IMG/VR virus record: IMGVR_UViG_3300010389_000008
DNA: 64,000 bases
Origin: a virus
Reading direction: 5' to 3' (one strand)
Part shown: piece by piece, positions 11,897 to 57,311 of the stretch
Numbering within the stretch: the first letter of the stretch is position 1
Layout of the letters: every line of letters begins with the position of its first letter
Notes under the pieces: generated by a model
Seen by the model: the letters and a program-made list of their open reading frames with translations, nothing else
Databases searched by the model: none
Told to the model about the DNA's origin: nothing
Translations under genes and position numbers: made by a program

Positions 11897-13693
11897 TTGT
11901 CGGAAACTCCAGAAGTCAGAATGGATTCTGAGATCCGTAATGATGGTGTTCTTGTGAATGCCATCACAGGCCTTGGCACTAAGAAGGATAAGAGTGAGTA
12001 TTACAACCTCCGTAGTCCTCGTCTCCTTTCGGAGCAGGAGTTAGAGGCTCTGTACTACGACCCTTTGTGTCGTCGCCTCGTCGACATCTACGCCGAATCG
12101 GCTGTCACTGAGCAGCCCACCATCAAACTCGGCGAAGAGACTGAGGAATATGAAGGCATTATTAAGTCCTTCGAGAACTATCTGGAGCAAATTGACTTCT
12201 ACTTCTACATCGAAGAAACGCTCAAGTTACAGCGAATCTATGGAGGAGCTGCACTCTTTCTGGTCCTCGATGATGGCCTGGAGCCTAGTGAGCCTGTACG
12301 GCCTGACCTTGTTAGGGGTATTGCTGACCTCGTCCCCCTCTCGCGGCGTGAGATTGTCCCCAACGACTACAACTACCTCAATTACAGGAACCCCGAGACT
12401 TACCGCATCTCCACTAGTAAATCCGTAAGGCGGGAAAACGATCTCAATTACCTTCTCGTACACAGCAGCCGCGTTCTCCGTTTTGACGGCCTGTTCTTGC
12501 CTTGGAGGCAAAGACTGATCAACGAAGGCTGGGGCATGTCGTACCTGCAGCCCTTCTTTGAGGTGTGGAAGCGCTACCGGGGGGCAACGGATGGCATGGC
12601 CACGATGCTCAACGAGATGGACCTTTTTGTCCACAAGATTCCTGGTTTGGCGAGCAAAGTTACTGCCGGTAAGGAGTCTGCGCTGAAGGCCCGCCTGGAG
12701 GCCAATGCACTTGCTAGATCTTTGTATGGCGGGATGGCGCTGGACACGGAGGAAGAAGTCTCCTTCGCCTCACGCTCCCTCGGCGGTGCCCAAGACATCT
12801 TCGATCGCCTCGTAGATGACCTTGTCGCGGCAGCCGACATGCCGAAGACCTTGTTATTTGGAACGTCTCCTGCTGGTGGTCTTTCAGAGTCCGGCAAATA
12901 CGAGGACAAGTCCTGGGCAGCGTCAGTGGAGCGCTACCAGACACATTCATTGCGCCGTGCCCTGAACCAGTTCTTCCAGCTGGTGCTCTCGATGCCTCAA
13001 GGCCCGACTCAGGGCACAGTGCCGGAAGAGTGGAGTGTTTATTTCCCTCCATACTTCTCTGAGTCAGACAGCGACAAGGCAGCCCTGCGGAAACAGGTCG
13101 CTGACACTGACAAGGTTTACGTCGACATGGGAGTGATTACTCCCCTGGAAGTTCGGAAGGCTCGTTTCTCCGGTACTGAATACAGCATTGAAACTGTTCT
13201 TCAGGAGGAGGAAGATGAGCGTCTCCAGCTCAAAGCTCAACTAGAGCAGGAGGCGTTAATTCAGGGTTACATCGGCCAGCAAGCTGCACTGGAGCAGTCC
13301 CAGCTGGCCCCCGAACAGCTACCTCCACAACAACCTGAAGAGCAAATCGCCCAGGACGCCGAGGACATCGTTCACATGAACGGCATTCCTCTTGCGCTAG
13401 GTAAGTCGAATGGTGCTTACCGAGTAGGCCAGATCCTTCACGTCGATGGTCAACGGAACGATGCTGAACAGGTCGTAATCGTCGGAAACCGTTTTAACGA
13501 CAGGAAGATCTATCGCAGTCATTATGTCGAAGATGGCATTATGAAGGCAGGACCATTACTGCTGGGCTTTTACTCCTCGCGCTCAGCCAATAAGGCCATC
13601 AGAGCTTTTGCTGATGGAAAGGAGATCGGTGGTATTGAACAACTTCAAGACGCCGATATTGAGCATCTGAAAACTTCTTTTGAGTACCCGTGA
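11897..13693 (+). CDS. Portal protein (DUF1073/HI1409-like) with C-terminal extension
   Basis: Follows terL; QRIYGGA, VHSSRVLRF, WGMSYLQ, AAADMPKTLLFGTSPAG. Confidence 0.9.
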   Translation: MSETPEVRMDSEIRNDGVLVNAITGLGTKKDKSEYYNLRSPRLLSEQELEALYYDPLCRRLVDIYAESAVTEQPTIKLGEETEEYEGIIKSFENYLEQIDFYFYIEETLKLQRIYGGAALFLVLDDGLEPSEPVRPDLVRGIADLVPLSRREIVPNDYNYLNYRNPETYRISTSKSVRRENDLNYLLVHSSRVLRFDGLFLPWRQRLINEGWGMSYLQPFFEVWKRYRGATDGMATMLNEMDLFVHKIPGLASKVTAGKESALKARLEANALARSLYGGMALDTEEEVSFASRSLGGAQDIFDRLVDDLVAAADMPKTLLFGTSPAGGLSESGKYEDKSWAASVERYQTHSLRRALNQFFQLVLSMPQGPTQGTVPEEWSVYFPPYFSESDSDKAALRKQVADTDKVYVDMGVITPLEVRKARFSGTEYSIETVLQEEEDERLQLKAQLEQEALIQGYIGQQAALEQSQLAPEQLPPQQPEEQIAQDAEDIVHMNGIPLALGKSNGAYRVGQILHVDGQRNDAEQVVIVGNRFNDRKIYRSHYVEDGIMKAGPLLLGFYSSRSANKAIRAFADGKEIGGIEQLQDADIEHLKTSFEYP

Positions 13694-15360
13694 CGAAGCG
13701 CACCGAAGCTAAAGAGCTGTTTCTAGCCGCTCTCCGGGGTGACGAGAAGGCCCAGCGCACTTGTACGGCAAATGGAAAGCCGTGTGGTGGCCGCTGCATT
13801 CCCAAGCATTGGAACTGCCGGATCAAAGGGGAGGGTGAAACGCCACCTACACGCGGCAACGCCGTTCAACTCTCTCCAGAACAGAAGGAGCGGGCTCTAG
13901 CTCGCCGTCGTAATCGTCGAATCCGTCGTGCTGCTGGTGTTGCGGCTGCGGTGGCCGGTGTGGGAGCTGCTATCGGTGGTGCTGCCTACTTGGGGGCCAA
14001 GAACCCAGCTAAAGCACGCCGCATGGCAAACAAGCTGGCTGGGGGTGGTGCATCTGAAGCCCTGGGTGTTGTTTCTGCTATTGGCGGTCCCGCTGCTGCC
14101 GGTGTTGCTGGTGTCGCCAACCTGGGAGTTGCAGGCTTCCAGACCGGAGCGAAGCTCGGAGCCGGTATTGCCCAACGCCGCCGCGCTGTAGGCCTCTACA
14201 AGAGCCTGATCAAACGCCGAGCTGTGTTGTCTCGCCGCGTGGCCCAACTTGAGAAGGGCACTGGTTATTACCAAGGTTTTGTGACCCGAGCCCAGGCAAA
14301 CCTGGATGCCAAGTGGAAGGTAAGAGACGCGGCAAAGTTAAGCGCTGGCCGGGCAGGACAGCTTCAGCGTGGTTACAAGCTGGGTGAAAATCCCCGCTCA
14401 ATCGCCCAGACCGATAAGATCCGCCGTCAAAACATGCGGTCTTCCAGCAGAGGCCTGAGGGAAGCCAACAAACGTCTACGCGATGCCGAGAAAAATCTGA
14501 ATGCACATTTACAGCAGCTTGAGGCAGCCAAGAAGTCACTCAACAGCGTGACGTGGAAGGCCTCGAAGCTGCGTAAAGGGTTGACCACTGCCAGCAATCC
14601 CATCCGTAACGTGGTGGAATCCAGCGTCAGTGGATCGAAAGCCGGTTTCCGTGCAGGTCGTCGCCAGGTTTCTGGCTTTATCCGCAATACGGGCCGTCGT
14701 GGTCCCAAACCTGACTCTCGCAGCTGGCAAGAGCGTTTTGGTTTGGACGAATCCGAGCGCACTGATAAGAAGTGCGGCAACTCCGGTATCCCTGATAACG
14801 CCAAATGCTCAAAGAAGGGCACCGCTCGCAAGATCGCCAAGGCTGCAGCAGGAGCTGCTCTGATTGCAGGTGGTGCGGCTGCTCTGAAAAACCGTCGCAA
14901 AGTTGCATCTCGGTTTCGTCAGCGTGGGCTGACTAGCTACCAGAAGCAAGCATTGGAGCGGATGAAGGCCAAAGGGACTGGTAAGTACGGGACGCGGGCT
15001 GGGCGCAGCTTCACTTCCAACGAGATGCCTTATTACACCGAAGCTGATCGTCCCCGTCCGCTTTACGACAAGCGGCTTTTCAAGAAAGACCTGGAATACA
15101 GGGGTGAGGAATTCGCGGGTTACAACAAGCCCAAGCGCACTCCTGATCACCCAAAAAAGTCACACGCCGTCCTGGCTAAGGAGGGCGGCACTGTCAAGCT
15201 GATCCGCTTCGGACAGCAGGGAGTGAAGGGCAGTCCAAAGAAAGAGGGCGAGTCCAAGGCCTACGCAGCAAGACGACGCGCGTTTAAGGCTCGTCATGCC
15301 AGCAACATCAAGAAGGGAAAGATGAGCGCTGCCTACTGGGCTAATCGCTCTAAATGGTGA
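13690..15360 (+). CDS. Large basic modular head-associated protein (C-terminus DUF6321-like)
   Basis: Lys/Arg-rich, two Cys-pair modules; ends YNKPKRTP...IRFGQQG...FKARH...SAAYWA. Confidence 0.8.
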   Translation: MTKRTEAKELFLAALRGDEKAQRTCTANGKPCGGRCIPKHWNCRIKGEGETPPTRGNAVQLSPEQKERALARRRNRRIRRAAGVAAAVAGVGAAIGGAAYLGAKNPAKARRMANKLAGGGASEALGVVSAIGGPAAAGVAGVANLGVAGFQTGAKLGAGIAQRRRAVGLYKSLIKRRAVLSRRVAQLEKGTGYYQGFVTRAQANLDAKWKVRDAAKLSAGRAGQLQRGYKLGENPRSIAQTDKIRRQNMRSSSRGLREANKRLRDAEKNLNAHLQQLEAAKKSLNSVTWKASKLRKGLTTASNPIRNVVESSVSGSKAGFRAGRRQVSGFIRNTGRRGPKPDSRSWQERFGLDESERTDKKCGNSGIPDNAKCSKKGTARKIAKAAAGAALIAGGAAALKNRRKVASRFRQRGLTSYQKQALERMKAKGTGKYGTRAGRSFTSNEMPYYTEADRPRPLYDKRLFKKDLEYRGEEFAGYNKPKRTPDHPKKSHAVLAKEGGTVKLIRFGQQGVKGSPKKEGESKAYAARRRAFKARHASNIKKGKMSAAYWANRSKW

Positions 15361-23088: not shown

Positions 23089-23315
23089 TGAAAGTTGATC
23101 TGCTGGTCTCTGAAGACAAGCGGTCATACTTCATCAACTGCGTTCAAAACGGCGAATTACTTGAGGTGGGGGCGGTTTATATCGCCCCTTCGTCGTGTTC
23201 GCCTATGAATCTTTTATCTGAAGATGGTGCTAAGTTGACCGTGGCGATTCCACCCGAGGCCTTAGATCCTCATTCAGAAAGGGTGGCCGTAGACACGTCA
23301 TTTTTCATAGAGTAA
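23088..23315 (+). CDS. Hypothetical protein
   Basis: TGATG overlap. Confidence 0.7.
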   Translation: MKVDLLVSEDKRSYFINCVQNGELLEVGAVYIAPSSCSPMNLLSEDGAKLTVAIPPEALDPHSERVAVDTSFFIE

Positions 23316-23812
23316 TGAGCAAGTATTCTGCGCTCTTTTTCCAGGAAAAGGAATATCACGAGATTGGTCCTTTCCGCTTTCCGATCTATGAAGATCTGGT
23401 GGCTGGCGAGGCTGAAGGTGTCGAGAACCTAGCTCGTAAGCAAGCTCAAAACACCTATACGCTCTTGAAGATCGCAAAAGCGGTCTCTAAGAAAAAGAAG
23501 ATCAGTGTCAAAGCTGCTCTGGAAATGCTGTCCGCCGATGTAGACGGTGATAACGAGGTTCTGTACGAGTACGCCGAAGAGTTGGCAGACGTGCAGCGAG
23601 ACTCCGCCACCGTGGCTGAGCAGCAGATCGAGATGGCGACCCTGTTCATCCGCTATCGGGGTGAGATCCAGGATCCTGAGGGCAAGCTGGGGTGGATCAC
23701 GCTCCCCGACTGGACCCGTGAAGACACCGCCGTTGTTCCTAACAAGATCCTCAATGAGATCTTTGAGTTCGTGAACTGGGAACGCAACGGCTGGCCTGAA
23801 GAGGGAAAGTAA
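23315..23812 (+). CDS. Tail assembly chaperone (gpG-like)
   Basis: Synteny; ends in GGGAAAG slippery site. Confidence 0.8.
   Translation: MSKYSALFFQEKEYHEIGPFRFPIYEDLVAGEAEGVENLARKQAQNTYTLLKIAKAVSKKKKISVKAALEMLSADVDGDNEVLYEYAEELADVQRDSATVAEQQIEMATLFIRYRGEIQDPEGKLGWITLPDWTREDTAVVPNKILNEIFEFVNWERNGWPEEGK
23803..23809 (+). other. Programmed -1 frameshift site (G GGA AAG)
   Basis: Same heptamer as lambda G/GT; -1 frame open through 24258. Confidence 0.88.
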
Positions 23813-24258
23813 CGCAGGAGGAGCAAGACCCAGAAGAGCTTCTGGAGTTCTATCGCAACTACCTCCTGTCACCCAGGTTCGACGCCCGTAAAACGTACAT
23901 GCAGGTCAAATGTTCCCCTGTTGGTGGGGACTACGACCGCTGCAACTTTCTGCGTACTCCCGTGAAGGAGATCATGTACGTTTTGCAGTACTGCTTTGAC
24001 GATGAAAAGCGTCGGGCGAACTTGTTCTCCATCAGTACCGCAAAGCTTGCTCAGATCGTTCTACAAACGGCCCACGCCTTTGGTGGAAGCAAAGAGCCTG
24101 TCCGAGCGAAGATCACAGACTTCCTGCCGTTTGAGCTGGATTCTGAAGCTTCTGAGCGCGAGGATCTTACCAAACAGATATTGACTAAACTTATTAAGAG
24201 TAGGCGTATTCCTACGCACGTAATTGCTGCTCTAAGTCCTCACATAACCCCTGGGTAA
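23803..24258 (+). CDS. gpT part of the G-GT frameshift product
   Basis: -1 frame has no stop from 23803 and joins track ORF 23899..24258. Confidence 0.8.
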   Translation, partial: GKVTQEEQDPEELLEFYRNYLLSPRFDARKTYMQVKCSPVGGDYDRCNFLRTPVKEIMYVLQYCFDDEKRRANLFSISTAKLAQIVLQTAHAFGGSKEPVRAKITDFLPFELDSEASEREDLTKQILTKLIKSRRIPTHVIAALSPHITPG

Positions 24259-49973: not shown

Positions 49974-50261
49974 GTGGAACCCGTTCTTCCACTGAGCATA
50001 GTGCTCAGTGTCATAGGTGGTGCATTTTCTGCTTTTCTCACACTCAACAAGAAGTTTGAAGGCATTGAAGATTCACAGCAAAAACACCTCCTTTCTGTAG
50101 ACAATAGGATTGACTCTATAGAGCTACGCCTTGCAAAGGAGTATGTGGATAAGGATGATTTGACAATGATCCTTAAACGCTTGGACGATCGTATTGATCG
50201 AATGGACTACAAGCTGGATCGAATTTTGATTGGGTACAATAAAAGCGCATCAGCGGAATAA
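49974..50261 (+). CDS. Membrane-anchored coiled-coil protein (lysis-associated)
   Basis: N-terminal hydrophobic helix then coiled coil; first gene of the lysis cassette. Confidence 0.7.
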   Translation: MEPVLPLSIVLSVIGGAFSAFLTLNKKFEGIEDSQQKHLLSVDNRIDSIELRLAKEYVDKDDLTMILKRLDDRIDRMDYKLDRILIGYNKSASAE

Positions 50262-50266
50262 TCATT

Positions 50267-50422
50267 ATGGGTCTTATTGAATCCCCTATTTTTTGGGTTG
50301 TCCTTGCCGCAATCTCGGAAATTCTTGCACTGATTCCGAACGAGAAGGTTCGATCTAACTCTGTTGTGCAGCTTTTCGGTCAGGCACTTCAGATGCTTAT
50401 TGCTTCTCGCGGAAAAAAGTAG
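50267..50422 (+). CDS. Holin-like membrane protein (51 aa)
   Basis: Own translation MGLIESPIFWVVLAAISEILALIP...SNSVVQL...RGKK; upstream of the endolysin. Confidence 0.65.
   Translation: MGLIESPIFWVVLAAISEILALIPNEKVRSNSVVQLFGQALQMLIASRGKK
50413..50419 (+). other. Candidate -1 frameshift site A AAA AAG
   Basis: Immediately before TAG; -1 frame open to 50670 without its own upstream start. Confidence 0.6.
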
Positions 50423-50670
50423 AAATTACTTTCTCGACTCATACCTGGCGTGATGATTTACGTCGGTATATCCAATCGAGACGTTTCTACACCACGCTTC
50501 CGCACAAGTTAGACCGCGCAGAGGAGGAATGGCATAAGAGCCAGCCTCGCAGTGGTTTAGCTATGCCTCATTTTATTGAACATCCCTCCGATGGTTCCGA
50601 AGCTCAAGAGCTTCTCGGTGGTGCCATCGAACTTAAATCCGACTTTTTACAGGATGACGACTTTTCCTGA
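50413..50670 (+). CDS. -1 frame extension of the holin-like gene
   Basis: KKVEITFSTHTWRDDLRR...LPHKLDRAEEEWHKSQP...LLGGAIELKSDF. Confidence 0.6.
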   Translation, partial: KKVEITFSTHTWRDDLRRYIQSRRFYTTLPHKLDRAEEEWHKSQPRSGLAMPHFIEHPSDGSEAQELLGGAIELKSDFLQDDDFS

Positions 50671-51826
50671 GGGGAAGTTGCACGACTTCTTCCGCTATTA
50701 CGACCCGTCTAATCCTAATCATGTCGAGGCGGTGCGGCAGCTCCAAGTCGATATCAAGGAGGCTGACGACGGTTTGCTCACGGATCTAGCGCCCTGGGTT
50801 CAACTCTTCAGGGCACCTATTGAAATTATTCAACCAGCTGAGAAGGTCGATAACAGCTGGGGAGGCATTGTGAATGCTGCGCGTAAGGCTGGCGCTAAAT
50901 TTCCAGAACTCGTCGCAGCCCAATGGGGACTTGAAAGCGGCTTCGGAAAGTATCCTGCTGCACCTAATAATTTTTGGGGTATCAAGGGCTTTGGACGTAA
51001 TCCTTCTAGTTTCTGTACTCAGAAGGAAACCAAAGAATTCATCAACGGTGAATGGATTACGACCTGTGCCTGGTTTCGCAACTTTGCCTCAATTGAAGAG
51101 GGTGTCCAATACGTAGTTAACCGTTGGTACAAAGACTACAAGAACTTTAAGGGCGTTAATCGCGCTGCCACTCGCCAAGAGGCCGCTCGTCTTCTAGTTA
51201 CAGAGGGCTATGCAACTGACCCAGATTACGCTGGGAAGCTGATCAAGCTAATGGATCAGTATGCAGGGCCGAGCGTCGCTGTTGCTCCCAAAGAGATCAA
51301 TCTCCCTGTACCTTTCTTCTCTCAGCTTGACTCAGAGACAAGCCAGGGCTCACGCATGTGTTTTTCCAGCACATGTGCCATGGCAGTCGATTTTCTGTGT
51401 CCTGGCCTGCTGAAGGGGGATCAAAAGGATGACTTTTATCTCCACAAGGTAAACGAGTACGGAGACACGACTGATCCTTACGCTCAGATCTATGCGCTAG
51501 ATACGTTCGGGCTTAATGCTGAATTTAGGCAAGATCTCGATGTATCGAATGTAGAAGCACAGCTTCTTCGGGGTTATCCCGTACCCATTGGTGTTCTTCA
51601 CCATGGTCCTGTTACCAATCCATCGGGCGGGGGACATTGGATCCTCATCGTTGGCATGGGCGAGGATTACTTCCTTGTCAACGATCCTTTCGGTGAAATG
51701 AATTTGGTGAACGGTGGGTACGTGCAACATACACACGGCGATCACCTCAAGTATTCCCATAAGAATCTTCTCCCCCGATGGACCGTTGAAGGTTCCTGTT
51801 CGGGTTGGGGAATCCTATTTGACTAA
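50654..51826 (+). CDS. Endolysin: GH73 glucosaminidase plus C39-like peptidase
   Basis: AAQWGLESG, NNFWGIKG, YATDPDY; VPFFSQLD...MCFSSTCAM...GHWILIVG; ATG in frame with the track ORF. Confidence 0.88.
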   Translation: MTTFPEGKLHDFFRYYDPSNPNHVEAVRQLQVDIKEADDGLLTDLAPWVQLFRAPIEIIQPAEKVDNSWGGIVNAARKAGAKFPELVAAQWGLESGFGKYPAAPNNFWGIKGFGRNPSSFCTQKETKEFINGEWITTCAWFRNFASIEEGVQYVVNRWYKDYKNFKGVNRAATRQEAARLLVTEGYATDPDYAGKLIKLMDQYAGPSVAVAPKEINLPVPFFSQLDSETSQGSRMCFSSTCAMAVDFLCPGLLKGDQKDDFYLHKVNEYGDTTDPYAQIYALDTFGLNAEFRQDLDVSNVEAQLLRGYPVPIGVLHHGPVTNPSGGGHWILIVGMGEDYFLVNDPFGEMNLVNGGYVQHTHGDHLKYSHKNLLPRWTVEGSCSGWGILFD

Positions 51827-51828
51827 AC

Positions 51829-51981
51829 ATGTCCAAGAAATCTCTCAGTGGTGGCACCTTTAGTGGTGGTCCGCCAAAACGCACCAGAATTGGTAATGGT
51901 CGTCGTGTGCGATCAAGATTTTTTAGTGGGAGAACTAAGCGCTCAAGCCCTCGAAAGGCTTACCGGGGCCAGGGGAAGTAG
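51829..51981 (+). CDS. Small basic cyanophage-type protein
   Basis: Own translation ending KAYRGQGK (50 aa). Confidence 0.6.
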   Translation: MSKKSLSGGTFSGGPPKRTRIGNGRRVRSRFFSGRTKRSSPRKAYRGQGK

Positions 51982-54858: not shown

Positions 54859-57207
54859 TTAAGCGTCGTGGATAGGCGCGAACATCGCCTCTTTCGAGAA
54901 AGGCTGGGCCTCACGTTCCGGGTCGACGCCTGCAATAAGGCATTTATCGGAATCGCAGGGTGCTGGACCTGCCTCGATCAGCTCACCAGTGTCGTGCTGT
55001 TTAAGTGCGTCAAAGAAGTCTGGATTCCTTCGGCGCTGTTTTACCTCCGCCTCAAGTTGCAAGTACTCCACTTGAGAAATGGGTTCAAAGGGGAGACGAG
55101 GAAACGTCGCGTTGGCATCAAAGCGTGCCAGAAGCGCAGCTGAAATGTAGCCCTTGTCCTGATCAATGGCCTCATAGATCAGGTTCGACAGCTCTTCGAT
55201 CTCATTCTCCCGATACTCAATCGTTGCCGATGTGTTGTGAGCGGTGTAGTGAGTCTGAACTTGCATGTAGAAGTCGAATTGAGCAGCAGCGGAGATAGCA
55301 CTGATGTCGACTTCGTCACAGCCGGGAATAGATGCCCAGCTAACAGCGGTTGGGATTTCAACCAGCCACTCGGTGCAACGAGGGTCAAAGGGGTTGTCAA
55401 GCAGTCGGCCTTCTTCATCCTTGTCGGATTGGGAAGGAACGACGTTGTAGCCGTAATCGATGCAGGCCAGTGCCACCGGATCGTCCTTCCGGAAGGTGAT
55501 ACGACGGATGAATCGCTGTGACTTCGGAGGGTGCCAGCCTGAAGAGGCTCCCGTCAGCAGACTCTTGGTACCTGCGGGTTGGACAGTGGTGGTGCGGTTG
55601 GGAACGCGGAGGCCGTGACGCTTGCAGTACTCCTCAACGGTGCTTTCAACAATGAAACGCCACCTCTTCAAGTACGCCGCCTCGGTTGCCTTAAAGGCTT
55701 TACCCTCTGCTGTGTTTGGTCGTCCCGCAATAAACCACTTCAACCACTCAGCTCCGAAGGCATGGACGAAGAAGTCAAAGAGGCCGGTAAAGCTGACACC
55801 CACGATGGGGTCCATTTCACGACTTTCGCGGTAGCGATCGATCTCGAATCGATGGTGCAGTAGAGCAGCAGCTGTCAGGGCTCCAGCCTTAAAAGCTTTC
55901 TGCTGCCCTTCAGTATCAGTCGGATCGATTCGGTTGAGGTGAATCTCAGACAGGTTGCAGTGGAAGTCAGTCCCGAGGATCTCTCCGCAAGGATTAAGGC
56001 CATAACGATTTAGACGGTGACGACGTTCCTGGTCGTCCATTGGGAGACCTTCTGGGTCCAGCATGCAGAGGTAAGCAGCTGCAAGATCCCTGCCTTCATT
56101 GCAGTAGATATCGATGAACTCTTTGCGCTTTTGCTCAGTGTTCAGGATGTCAACATTAGATCGAGCAATAGCTTCTGGTGCGAATTGAATAGCACCTTCA
56201 CCGCTGTAGAACTGCTTGGTGACGGCCTCCTTGACCTCGTCTTTGCTGGGCTTGGAGTGGTAGACACGAGTGTGATTTGCCATCCGCAGCGCATCCCGCT
56301 TGGGGTCAATGCGCCAAGCTCCATCTGGATCCTGTTGCCACAGGTTGTCTTTCGCACAGGCTGCTGCTGCGTCATCCGAACCGAACTGACGCATGCCCGC
56401 ACTACGCCTGATGTTGCCCGCGACCACAACGGTTGCAGCCTCATCAATCAAGAGGCAACACTCAACGGAAGTCAACCGGCGACCAAGCGCACCATTGAGG
56501 ATGTTGAGCATCTTGGTGAATAGTTCTTCCAACTTGATTGGGTTGGAAGTACCACCAAAGCCCTTTAGCTTCTCGCCCGCTGGACGAACACAGGACAGAT
56601 CGAGATTGATGTGAACAGGGCGCATCCAATCGAACTCCAGTGACGTTGAAGCTTCGATCACCGCCATGTAGGCATCCACCCACCCATGACGACTATCACC
56701 GACCTTGAGGTTGATGGTGTTACCCCGGTAATCAACAAACGTATGCTCTTGTCTGTTGTTCGGCGCTGCGGAACCGACGCCGATCACTTGCTCAATAACT
56801 AAAGAGTTACGGATAGATGGCAGGTTTTTGATCATCCGCTCTTCGATGATCGCACCAGTACCCGACCCCATCATGGCTAGGTCCATCATCAGACCAAAAG
56901 CATCCCAATCCACCAACTCAGTGGATGTGCAGTTGTAAGCACCAGAAAAGTTCTTGGGATTTTTGATCCATTCTGTGCCACCGACCCAAAGCCAGCGACC
57001 AGAGGGAAGCATTTTCTTCGCGTCCACCATTTCACCCACCAGGGTGGTTTCTTCATCGGTGAACTGGCCCAGCTCACTCAGGCCATCAATTACACGTTTG
57101 CGGACTTCCGCGAATGACTCGCGGGTTCCATCATCCTTTCGTCGGCTATATGTCCGATAAAACACAGGATTGGCAGCCGGGGCGGAGGCCAAAAAATCTG
57201 AATTCAT
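54859..57207 (-). CDS. nrdJ: Class II (B12-dependent) ribonucleotide reductase
   Basis: VFYRTYSR, PSGRWLWVGG, AYNC, VAGNIRRSA, NPCGEI, CNLSE, TTVQPAGT. Confidence 0.95.
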   Translation of the reverse strand: MNSDFLASAPAANPVFYRTYSRRKDDGTRESFAEVRKRVIDGLSELGQFTDEETTLVGEMVDAKKMLPSGRWLWVGGTEWIKNPKNFSGAYNCTSTELVDWDAFGLMMDLAMMGSGTGAIIEERMIKNLPSIRNSLVIEQVIGVGSAAPNNRQEHTFVDYRGNTINLKVGDSRHGWVDAYMAVIEASTSLEFDWMRPVHINLDLSCVRPAGEKLKGFGGTSNPIKLEELFTKMLNILNGALGRRLTSVECCLLIDEAATVVVAGNIRRSAGMRQFGSDDAAAACAKDNLWQQDPDGAWRIDPKRDALRMANHTRVYHSKPSKDEVKEAVTKQFYSGEGAIQFAPEAIARSNVDILNTEQKRKEFIDIYCNEGRDLAAAYLCMLDPEGLPMDDQERRHRLNRYGLNPCGEILGTDFHCNLSEIHLNRIDPTDTEGQQKAFKAGALTAAALLHHRFEIDRYRESREMDPIVGVSFTGLFDFFVHAFGAEWLKWFIAGRPNTAEGKAFKATEAAYLKRWRFIVESTVEEYCKRHGLRVPNRTTTVQPAGTKSLLTGASSGWHPPKSQRFIRRITFRKDDPVALACIDYGYNVVPSQSDKDEEGRLLDNPFDPRCTEWLVEIPTAVSWASIPGCDEVDISAISAAAQFDFYMQVQTHYTAHNTSATIEYRENEIEELSNLIYEAIDQDKGYISAALLARFDANATFPRLPFEPISQVEYLQLEAEVKQRRRNPDFFDALKQHDTGELIEAGPAPCDSDKCLIAGVDPEREAQPFSKEAMFAPIHDA

Positions 57208-57311
57208 AAGTGGTCTGAGGGCGATCAACGATCAACTGCAGCCTTCTCAGGGTAACCAGAAAAGGACAGGTCACATCGGTTGTCCTGGTTACGATATGCG
57301 TAAAAAGTCCC

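What the first reader, a model, noticed from the sequence alone, without database searches (positions are those of the whole stretch)
50267..50670. Probable programmed -1 frameshift in the holin-like lysis gene
Seen: the 51-aa membrane ORF ends GGA AAA AAG TAG. The -1 frame is open from 50359 to 50670, has no ATG/GTG/TTG before 50564, and reads as a plausible protein. Established: A_AAA_AAG is the efficient bacterial shift site of dnaX and IS3-family elements. Inference: two products (51 aa and 134 aa) with a shared membrane anchor, possibly a holin/antiholin or spanin-substitute pair set by recoding. No spanin was recognised, and no clear stimulatory hairpin or internal SD was seen.
Basis: partly seen in the sequence, partly recalled or inferred. 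Interest (0 to 1): 0.7.

Follow-up and report, generated by a model that had tools for sequence, protein, structure and literature searches.

The report
Conserved frameshift in cyanophage lysis gene
A tiny membrane-protein gene just upstream of the cell-wall-cutting enzyme of this cyanobacterial virus ends in a ribosome slip site that is kept in all 75 distinct related viral sequences examined, so it very probably makes both a 51-residue peptide and a 134-residue extended form, a way of making two lysis-cassette proteins that I could not find described in the literature.

Summary
The 51-codon membrane ORF (50267-50422) ends GGA AAA AAG TAG. The -1 frame is open from 50359 to 50670 and has no ATG/GTG/TTG before 50563.

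Comparative evidence strongly supports a programmed -1 ribosomal frameshift:
- All 75 distinct homologous sequences carry an in-phase X_XXA_AAG heptamer (A-type 68, G_GGA_AAG 4, C_CCA_AAG 3). They include cultured Synechococcus phages S-CBS1, S-CBS3, KBS-S-2A, S-B28, WH11-B and S-EIVl.
- The 0-frame stop lies 0 or 3 nt after the heptamer in every case.
- The 11 codons directly after the heptamer are under purifying selection in the -1 frame only (pN/pS 0.23-0.33), and they lie upstream of almost every possible start codon.
- The host strain WH7803 has a single tRNA-Lys(UUU).
- This phage's own tail-chaperone frameshift uses the same design (G-type heptamer plus stop).

No conserved stimulatory RNA structure was found, and no protein data exist. 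The function is inferred from context only: a holin-like membrane peptide plus a minor long isoform that regulates lysis.

An earlier report of this scan (e1-3422211) found the same phenomenon on other DNA. I found no paper describing it.

The parts
49974..50261 (+). Gene 1 of the cassette: 95 aa, N-terminal transmembrane helix plus coiled coil (phrog_12220, unknown function)
   Evidence: A homologue lies directly upstream of the small gene in most related loci.
50267..50422 (+). Gene 2, 0-frame product: 51-aa membrane peptide with one TM helix (about residues 5-24), an amphipathic helix and a basic C-terminus (phrog_22542, unknown function)
   Evidence: tblastn homologues in Synechococcus phages.
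50413..50419 (+). Slippery heptamer A_AAA_AAG, in phase with gene 2
   Evidence: Conserved in phase in 68 of 75 distinct relatives and replaced by G_GGA_AAG or C_CCA_AAG in the other 7.
50420..50422 (+). 0-frame stop TAG directly after the heptamer
   Evidence: The stop is 0 nt (20 sequences) or 3 nt (55 sequences) after the heptamer in all 75.
50419..50670 (+). -1 frame extension: 83 codons plus TGA, with no start codon until 50563. Predicted long helix plus a small C-terminal beta/helix module.
50420..50489 (+). Predicted local RNA structure starting at the stop codon. Candidate stimulator only; not conserved across the family.
   Evidence: MFE -22.3 kcal/mol, z -3.75. Searches show no family-wide structure.
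50654..51826 (+). Endolysin (glucosaminidase plus C39-like peptidase domains, no signal or TM). Its ATG lies 17 nt inside the end of the -1 extension.
   Evidence: The overlap is general.

Best explanation
Gene 2 of the lysis cassette is decoded in two ways. Most ribosomes read the 0 frame and stop at TAG (50420), giving a 51-aa single-pass membrane peptide. A minority slip back one base on the heptamer at 50413-50419. In that slip, tRNA-Lys(UUU) in the A site moves from AAG to AAA, and the P-site tRNA re-pairs one base back. These ribosomes continue in the -1 frame to 50670. The product is a 134-aa protein: the whole short peptide plus an 83-residue soluble, acidic, mostly helical domain.

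Shown here: the signal, its phase, its conservation, and coding selection in the -1 frame.

Inferred:
- By the positive-inside rule the peptide is N-out/C-in, so the extension would be cytoplasmic.
- The short form is a holin-like component that a signal-less endolysin needs.
- The long form is a minor isoform, perhaps 0.3-4% by analogy with E. coli measurements. It would tune lysis in an antiholin-like or accessory role.
- Because the extension ends inside the endolysin start region, frameshifted ribosomes may also feed endolysin translation.
For: 1. Anatomy in the window is as described.
2. Conservation. 88 loci gave 75 distinct sequences, forming 47/25/11 clusters at 90/70/50% identity of the extension. 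All have an in-phase X_XXA_AAG heptamer: A-type 68, G-type 4, C-type 3. PMC4066793 reports these three as the most efficient -1 motifs in E. coli.
3. The constraint is on nucleotides. The codon supplying X encodes 11 different amino acids yet always ends in A before AAA AAG. In this phage only 17% of codons end in A, and AAA is 35% of Lys codons.
4. The 0-frame stop is 0 or 3 nt after the heptamer in all 75.
5. No start codon explains the extension. The first ATG/GTG/TTG after the heptamer lies 3-84 codons in, or is absent; it is at codon 50 in the window. Only one lineage has one upstream. The codon overlapping the stop is GTA, CTA or TTA in 34 of 75.
6. pN/pS of the 11 codons right after the heptamer is 0.23-0.33 in the -1 frame in four subgroups. 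The other frames carry stops.
7. Gene callers miss or truncate the ORF.
8. Host check. Synechococcus WH7803, host of KBS-S-2A and WH11-B, has 43 tRNA genes with one tRNA-Lys(UUU) and no CUU.
9. Internal control. The ORF before the tape measure ends GAG GGA AAG TAA (heptamer 23803-23809). Its -1 frame runs open into ORF 23899..24258. This is the classic tail-chaperone frameshift with the same heptamer-plus-stop design.
10. Lysis context. The endolysin has no TM or signal. In the T7-like podoviruses the cassette sits after the tail-fibre region and just before the small terminase gene; from my knowledge of the T7 gene order, that is where T7 carries its holin, gene 17.5.
Against: - There is no protein, ribosome-profiling or reporter evidence.
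- No stimulatory RNA structure or upstream SD-like element is conserved across the family. Efficiency may therefore be low, about 0.3-4% in E. coli without stimulators (PMC4066793).
- Relatives of the extension exist as separate genes with their own starts: S-CBS2 gp048, whose GTG overlaps the stop, and about 70 AT-rich contigs. The domain therefore does not strictly need covalent fusion.
- In 41 of 75 sequences a CTG or TTG overlaps the 0-frame TGA, so some reinitiation cannot be excluded there.
- Neither gene 1 nor gene 2 matches any known holin family. The functional part is context-based only.
Confidence: 0.85

Rival explanations
1. No frameshift. The downstream ORF is a separate gene translated by independent initiation, or by termination-reinitiation at a non-canonical codon next to the 0-frame stop.
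For: S-CBS2 does exactly this with a GTG overlapping the stop. 41 of 75 sequences have CTG or TTG overlapping a TGA stop. The domain is a stand-alone ORF in AT-rich relatives.
Against: 34 of 75 sequences, including the window (GTA), have GTA, CTA or TTA at that position. No other codon is conserved as a start. This model does not explain the invariant in-phase heptamer in three interchangeable forms. It also does not explain the forced A at the third position of 11 different codons. The relatives with true own starts have lost the heptamer.
Confidence: 0.07
2. Transcriptional slippage. RNA polymerase adds an A in the A-run, producing a fraction of mRNAs with the two frames fused.
For: The A-type sites are runs of 6-9 A. 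Homopolymer slippage is known in bacteria (PMC5009743, title and scope).
Against: Seven distinct sequences use G_GGA_AAG or C_CCA_AAG, which have only three A. The run is always in the one phase a ribosomal tandem slip requires, and it always ends in G. A6 is short for efficient slippage (from my knowledge of the literature).
Confidence: 0.04
3. Artefact or decay. Either an indel error in the A-run split one 134-codon gene, or the downstream frame is a dead remnant.
For: One metagenomic contig (L100) has an A9 run that fuses the frames. One low-coverage contig (L015) has A5.
Against: The split arrangement recurs in 75 distinct sequences from isolates and many metagenomes. L100 is an error-prone polished assembly with a second frame break near the end of the same ORF. 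L015 has 1.8x coverage and an extra stop. The extension is under purifying selection.
Confidence: 0.02

Closest known systems
Tail assembly chaperone G/GT -1 frameshift of tailed phages (lambda G/GT; Xu, Hendrix & Duda 2004, as cited in PMC5009743)
   Same: A -1 slip on a heptamer near the end of a short ORF yields a major short product and a minor C-terminally extended product that shares the whole short sequence. It is conserved by position rather than by sequence. This very phage has such a site, with the same heptamer-plus-stop design, at 23803-23809.
   Different: The gene class (a membrane peptide in the lysis cassette) and the location (before the endolysin) differ. The function of the ratio is unknown here.
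E. coli dnaX tau/gamma and IS3/IS911 frameshift sites
   Same: The same A-type heptamer. The same dependence on a single tRNA-Lys(UUU) decoding AAG; that tRNA set is found in host WH7803. The G- and C-type variants are the other top motifs (PMC4066793).
   Different: dnaX and IS3/IS911 have strong stimulators (an upstream SD-like element, a downstream hairpin or pseudoknot). None is conserved here. dnaX frameshifting truncates the product, whereas this one extends it.
Lambda S105/S107 dual-start holin/antiholin (from my knowledge of the literature)
   Same: One lysis-cassette membrane gene would give two isoforms that share the transmembrane part, in a ratio fixed by translation.
   Different: Lambda does this with two start codons two residues apart at the N-terminus. 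Here it would be recoding at the C-terminus that adds 83 residues. Antagonism between the isoforms is not shown here.
MS2 lysis gene L, whose expression depends on rare frameshifting and termination in the coat gene (Kastelein et al. 1982, listed in PMC5009743)
   Same: It links frameshifting to the expression of a lysis function.
   Different: In MS2 the frameshift only delivers ribosomes to a separate start codon, and no trans-frame protein is the product. It is an ssRNA phage with no heptamer.
Earlier reports of this scan: the same cassette on another genome (e1-3422211), and frameshift-joined peptidase-lysozyme lysins of T4-like cyanophages (e.g. e1-5668847)
   Same: AI notes describe in-phase A-type heptamers in cyanophage lysis genes. 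The first describes this same membrane-peptide arrangement (45 versus 136 aa, about 75 relatives).
   Different: Those notes concern other genomes. The T4-like case joins two enzymes, not a membrane peptide and a soluble domain. I re-derived the first independently and did not test the second.

Membership tests
Programmed -1 ribosomal frameshift site (X_XXY_YYZ type) | Slippery heptamer in the correct phase of the upstream frame | tested here: met
   Window 50413-50419. All 75 distinct relatives.
Programmed -1 ribosomal frameshift site (X_XXY_YYZ type) | -1 frame open across the site, with no usable start of its own | tested here: met
   The first canonical start lies 3-84 codons after the heptamer, or is absent.
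Programmed -1 ribosomal frameshift site (X_XXY_YYZ type) | Site conserved at nucleotide level beyond what the encoded amino acids require | tested here: met
   11 different X-codons all end in A. Lys-Lys is always AAA AAG. Three alternative efficient heptamers occur.
Programmed -1 ribosomal frameshift site (X_XXY_YYZ type) | Protein-coding selection in the -1 frame starting at the site | tested here: met
   pN/pS 0.23-0.33 for the 11 codons after the heptamer. The other frames are closed.
Programmed -1 ribosomal frameshift site (X_XXY_YYZ type) | Downstream stimulatory hairpin or pseudoknot, or an upstream SD-like element | tested here: inconclusive
   The window folds well (z -3.75). No structure or SD-like motif is conserved in two subfamilies. 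An adjacent stop codon is the only invariant 3' feature.
Programmed -1 ribosomal frameshift site (X_XXY_YYZ type) | Host decodes AAG with tRNA-Lys(UUU) only | tested here: met
   Synechococcus WH7803, host of three phages that carry the site, has one tRNA-Lys(ttt) and no ctt among 43 tRNA genes. The window's own host is unknown.
Programmed -1 ribosomal frameshift site (X_XXY_YYZ type) | Trans-frame protein detected | not testable with these tools
   Needs MS, a reporter assay or ribosome profiling.
Holin | Small protein with at least one TM helix and a charged C-terminus, encoded next to an endolysin that lacks its own export signal | tested here: met
   In the podoviruses the cassette lies between the tail-fibre region and the small terminase gene; from my knowledge of T7, that is where its holin gene 17.5 sits.
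Holin | Sequence membership of a described holin family | tested here: not met
   No holin family in Pfam, NCBIfam or PHROGs. phrog_22542 and phrog_12220 are 'unknown function'.
Holin | Forms lethal membrane lesions that release endolysin | not testable with these tools
   Needs expression and lysis assays.
Holin/antiholin isoform pair | Two products sharing the TM domain, one antagonising the other | not testable with these tools
   Two products are inferred from the recoding signal. Antagonism is untested.
Spanin (i-/o- or unimolecular) | Lipoprotein signal with a lipobox Cys, or a periplasmic coiled coil anchored N-in, usually encoded after the endolysin | tested here: not met
   The extension has no Cys and no signal. 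The charge distribution of gene 2 predicts N-out/C-in. The gene lies before the endolysin.

The most novel reading that the evidence does not exclude
The frameshift is a lysis clock. It fixes a low ratio of a long, cytoplasmically extended isoform to a short holin-like peptide that share one transmembrane helix, and the long form acts as an antiholin-like timer. Only frameshifted ribosomes terminate inside the endolysin start region, so they would also couple endolysin synthesis to the slip rate. This would be a recoding-based alternative to dual-start holin genes. It is widespread in picocyanobacterial sipho- and podoviruses.
Probability: 0.25. Interest if true: 0.85.

Novelty: new variant of a known kind. 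Interest (0 to 1): 0.72.

Why it matters
- **Missing lysis components.** Lysis control in cyanophages is poorly understood. No holin, antiholin or spanin is established for marine Synechococcus phages.
- **An unannotated protein.** This adds a conserved isoform to the lysis cassette of several cultured model phages: S-CBS1, S-CBS3, KBS-S-2A, S-B28, WH11-B and S-EIVl. It is also present in hundreds of environmental contigs, so it can be tested in existing phage-host pairs.
- **A new deployment of frameshifting.** It extends programmed frameshifting in tailed phages beyond structural and assembly genes to a lysis-cassette membrane protein. It also shows a heptamer-plus-adjacent-stop design working without an obvious RNA stimulator.
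- **Annotation.** Current annotation is wrong or missing for this ORF in every record I looked at.

Tried and rejected
- **Known-family searches.** Pfam, NCBIfam and PHROGs gave nothing useful for the short peptide, the extension or gene 1.
- **Structure.** The AlphaFold model of the extension (pLDDT 79.5; helix 10-41) matched only its own homologues in BFVD.
- **Complex prediction.** The cytoplasmic part of gene 1 with the extension returned no verdict. It is no evidence either way.
- **Conserved stimulatory RNA structure.** None found. The window's stable fold is not shared.
- **Natural in-frame fusion.** The one candidate (P0061, an A9 run) sits in an indel-prone polished contig with a second frame break, so I rejected it. 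Contig L015 (A5, 1.8x coverage, extra stop) was set aside as unreliable.
- **'Own-start' calls P0008 and P0018.** These are TTG Leu codons overlapping the stop, and the heptamer is still present.
- **My first idea about S-CBS2 gp048.** I thought it had its own TM helix. The hydropathy profile withdrew that.
- **Related DNA elsewhere.** No whole genome is held for the window. There is no near-identical phage record. No prophage copy of the endolysin was found in genome contigs.
- **Literature.** Six searches found no description of this site. The large recoding review PMC5009743 does not contain the word holin in the 300,000 characters held.

Full report
**What is in the window**

The plus strand carries a compact cassette.
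- Gene 1 (49974-50261) encodes 95 aa: one N-terminal transmembrane helix followed by a coiled coil.
- Gene 2 (50267-50422) encodes 51 aa.
- A 231-nt stretch follows with no called gene.
- The endolysin follows; its ATG is at 50654 and the ORF ends at 51826. It has glucosaminidase and C39-like peptidase domains and no signal or TM segment.

Gene 2 ends GGA AAA AAG TAG. The seven bases 50413-50419 form a slippery heptamer in the phase a tandem -1 slip needs, and the stop follows directly. The -1 frame is open from 50359 to 50670. Its first ATG/GTG/TTG is at 50563. A -1 shift gives a 134-aa product.

**Relatives in cultured phages**

tblastn with the short peptide and with the start-less -1 translation hit adjacent positions in cultured Synechococcus siphoviruses.
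- S-CBS1, S-CBS3 and KBS-S-2A have the same order: gene 1, gene 2, extension, lysozyme.
- All three have the A-type heptamer in phase, one codon before the stop, with the -1 frame open into the homologue of the extension.
- The annotated starts of S-CBS1 gp23 (TTG) and S-CBS3 gp22 (ATG) lie 11 and 19 codons inside the conserved sequence. In KBS-S-2A the ORF is not annotated at all.
- The T7-like podoviruses S-B28 and WH11-B have the A-type heptamer plus an immediate stop, and a 54-63 codon extension.
- The Arctic-lake phage S-EIVl has the G-type heptamer and a 91-codon extension whose annotation is truncated.
- One uncultured podovirus has the small gene with neither heptamer nor extension.

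**Relatives in IMG/VR**

A scan found 229 stretches encoding relatives of the extension, and the best 80 were fetched.
- 70 carry the A-type heptamer in phase. The other 10 carry G_GGA_AAG or C_CCA_AAG in phase.
- Pooled with the window, one Logan metagenome contig (L013) and the isolates, this makes 88 loci and 75 distinct sequences: 68 A-type, 4 G-type, 3 C-type. They form 47, 25 and 11 clusters at 90, 70 and 50% identity of the extension.
- These three heptamers are the ones reported as most efficient for -1 frameshifting in E. coli (PMC4066793).
- The 0-frame stop is 0 nt (20 sequences) or 3 nt (55 sequences) after the heptamer, without exception.
- The codon supplying the first base of the A-type heptamer encodes 11 different amino acids but always ends in A. 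In this phage only 17% of codons end in A, and AAA is the minority Lys codon at 35%.
- The constraint therefore acts on the nucleotides and not on a Lys-Lys tail.

**Is the stretch after the heptamer translated, and from where?**

- In a codon alignment, third-position variability exceeds first- and second-position variability from the first aligned codons after the heptamer.
- Nei-Gojobori counts on the 11 codons directly after the heptamer give pN/pS of 0.24, 0.23, 0.29 and 0.33 in four sequence subgroups in the -1 frame. The 0 frame always contains the stop, and the +1 frame is mostly closed.
- The first canonical start after the heptamer lies 3 to 84 codons in, or is absent; it is at codon 50 in the window. 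Only one lineage has any start upstream in that frame.
- The codon overlapping the 0-frame stop is CTG or TTG in the 41 sequences with a TGA stop. It is GTA, CTA or TTA in the other 34, including the window. Reinitiation at that codon therefore cannot be the general mechanism.
- Protein databases agree. Only three called homologues were found by word search. Among 94 hits of a profile search of 1.84 billion representatives, most calls begin inside the domain or run upstream through the out-of-frame reading of gene 2.
- Two 'own-start' calls I checked are TTG Leu codons with the heptamer still present.
- The single apparent in-frame fusion has an A9 run in a polished, indel-prone contig with a second frame break near its end. 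I do not trust it.

**Ribosomal or transcriptional slippage?**

The G- and C-type sites have only three A. The A-runs are always in one phase and always end in G. Both facts point to the ribosome.

- The phage's class II ribonucleotide reductase is about 67% identical to that of Cyanobium and Synechococcus. This fits a picocyanobacterial host and gave access to the WH7803 genome.
- WH7803 hosts KBS-S-2A, WH11-B and 7B11-B.
- Its 43 tRNA genes include one tRNA-Lys, anticodon UUU, and none with CUU. tRNA-Gly(UCC) and tRNA-Pro(UGG) are present for the G- and C-type P-site codons.

This phage also provides an internal control. The ORF before the tape-measure gene ends GAG GGA AAG TAA (heptamer 23803-23809). 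The -1 frame runs open from there through ORF 23899..24258. By position this is the conserved tail-assembly-chaperone frameshift. It uses the same heptamer-plus-adjacent-stop design as the lysis site. Family searches did not name these two ORFs.

**Stimulators**

- The window's RNA from the stop codon onward folds well: -22.3 kcal/mol, z -3.75, with no shuffle as good.
- In its closest subgroup an outer stem is kept, mostly by invariant columns.
- Five other family members give z between -1.8 and +1.1. A 17-sequence subfamily has no consensus structure, at -5.4 kcal/mol.
- No upstream SD-like motif is shared.
- The only invariant 3' feature is the nearby stop.
- In E. coli these heptamers give about 0.3% without stimulators and up to about 3.7% with a favourable 3' context (PMC4066793). 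The long form is therefore probably a minor species, as with lambda G/GT (PMC5009743). This is inference.

**What the proteins may do**

- Gene 2 has one clear TM helix. It has an acidic N-terminus with no Lys or Arg, basic residues after the helix, and a basic tail. By the positive-inside rule it is N-out/C-in, so the extension would be cytoplasmic.
- The extension is acidic: 16 Asp/Glu against 10 Lys/Arg.
- It is predicted as a 32-residue helix followed by a small beta/helix module, at pLDDT 79.5. It has no structural or family match other than its own homologues.
- It is modular. The C-terminal module comes in three variants. The podoviral form keeps only the C-terminal module.
- In S-CBS2 it is a separate, translationally coupled gene, with its GTG overlapping the stop in the same -1 register and no heptamer.
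- In about 70 AT-rich marine contigs it is a free-standing ORF of about 72 aa.
- The domain can therefore act unlinked. Fusion by frameshift is one of two expression modes.
- The endolysin needs a membrane-permeabilising partner. In the podoviruses the cassette lies between the tail-fibre region and the small terminase gene, which from my knowledge of the T7 gene order is where T7 carries its holin, gene 17.5. Gene 1 and/or gene 2 are therefore the holin candidates, but neither belongs to a described holin family.
- In 56 of 75 sequences a long ORF starts 4-59 nt before the end of the extension. In the window this ORF is the endolysin; in the related loci its identity was not checked. Frameshifted ribosomes may reinitiate there. 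This is speculation.

**Comparison with what is known, and novelty**

Mechanistically this is a textbook -1 site, closest in logic to the tail-chaperone G/GT case. In motif and tRNA dependence it is closest to dnaX and IS3. What is new is the gene class and the context.

I found no paper describing a frameshift in a holin-like or lysis-cassette membrane gene of a tailed phage. The large recoding review mentions lysis only for MS2 and does not contain the word holin in the text held.

An earlier report of this scan (e1-3422211) reached the same conclusion for the same cassette on another genome. Other notes describe frameshift-joined lysins in T4-like cyanophages. I treated these as leads only.

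My confidence that the frameshift is real and programmed is about 0.85. My confidence in the antiholin-like role is much lower.

Noticed in passing
window 23315-24258 (heptamer 23803-23809): The ORF before the tape-measure gene ends GAG GGA AAG TAA. The -1 frame is open from the heptamer through ORF 23899..24258. By position this is the tail-assembly-chaperone frameshift, with the same heptamer-plus-stop design as the lysis site. PHROGs did not name either ORF.
   Followed up: partly
window 15153-15159, inside ORF 13690..15360: This is the only other in-phase A-type heptamer among the 16 long ORFs checked (CCA AAA AAG). The -1 frame stops after about 7 codons, so a slip would truncate the 556-aa protein by about 70 residues. 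Conservation was not examined.
   Followed up: no
window 51829-51981: A 50-aa, extremely basic ORF lies directly after the endolysin (phrog_516, unknown function, E 9e-6). It may be part of the lysis cassette.
   Followed up: no
L001 (S-CBS1), L002 (S-CBS3), L003 (KBS-S-2A), L096 (S-B28), L097 (S-EIVl): Public annotations of the extension ORF are truncated at internal TTG/ATG codons (S-CBS1 gp23, S-CBS3 gp22, S-EIVl) or absent (KBS-S-2A, S-B28). In S-B28 the small gene itself is not annotated either.
   Followed up: yes
L110-L182, e.g. L122 360-793: AT-rich marine viral contigs encode the C-terminal module of the extension (motif FGEDGWSIS) as a free-standing ORF of about 72 aa. Its ATG overlaps the stop of a different 72-aa membrane protein. 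This is an alternative, non-recoded arrangement.
   Followed up: partly
L100 1640-1660 and 1900-1930: A polished metagenome contig has an A9 run that fuses the two frames, and a second frame break near the end of the same ORF. This is probably homopolymer error, not a natural fusion.
   Followed up: partly
window 54859-57228 (minus strand): The class II ribonucleotide reductase is about 67% identical to NrdJ of Cyanobium, Synechococcus and Prochlorococcus genomes. This points to a picocyanobacterial host and probably to host-derived acquisition.
   Followed up: partly
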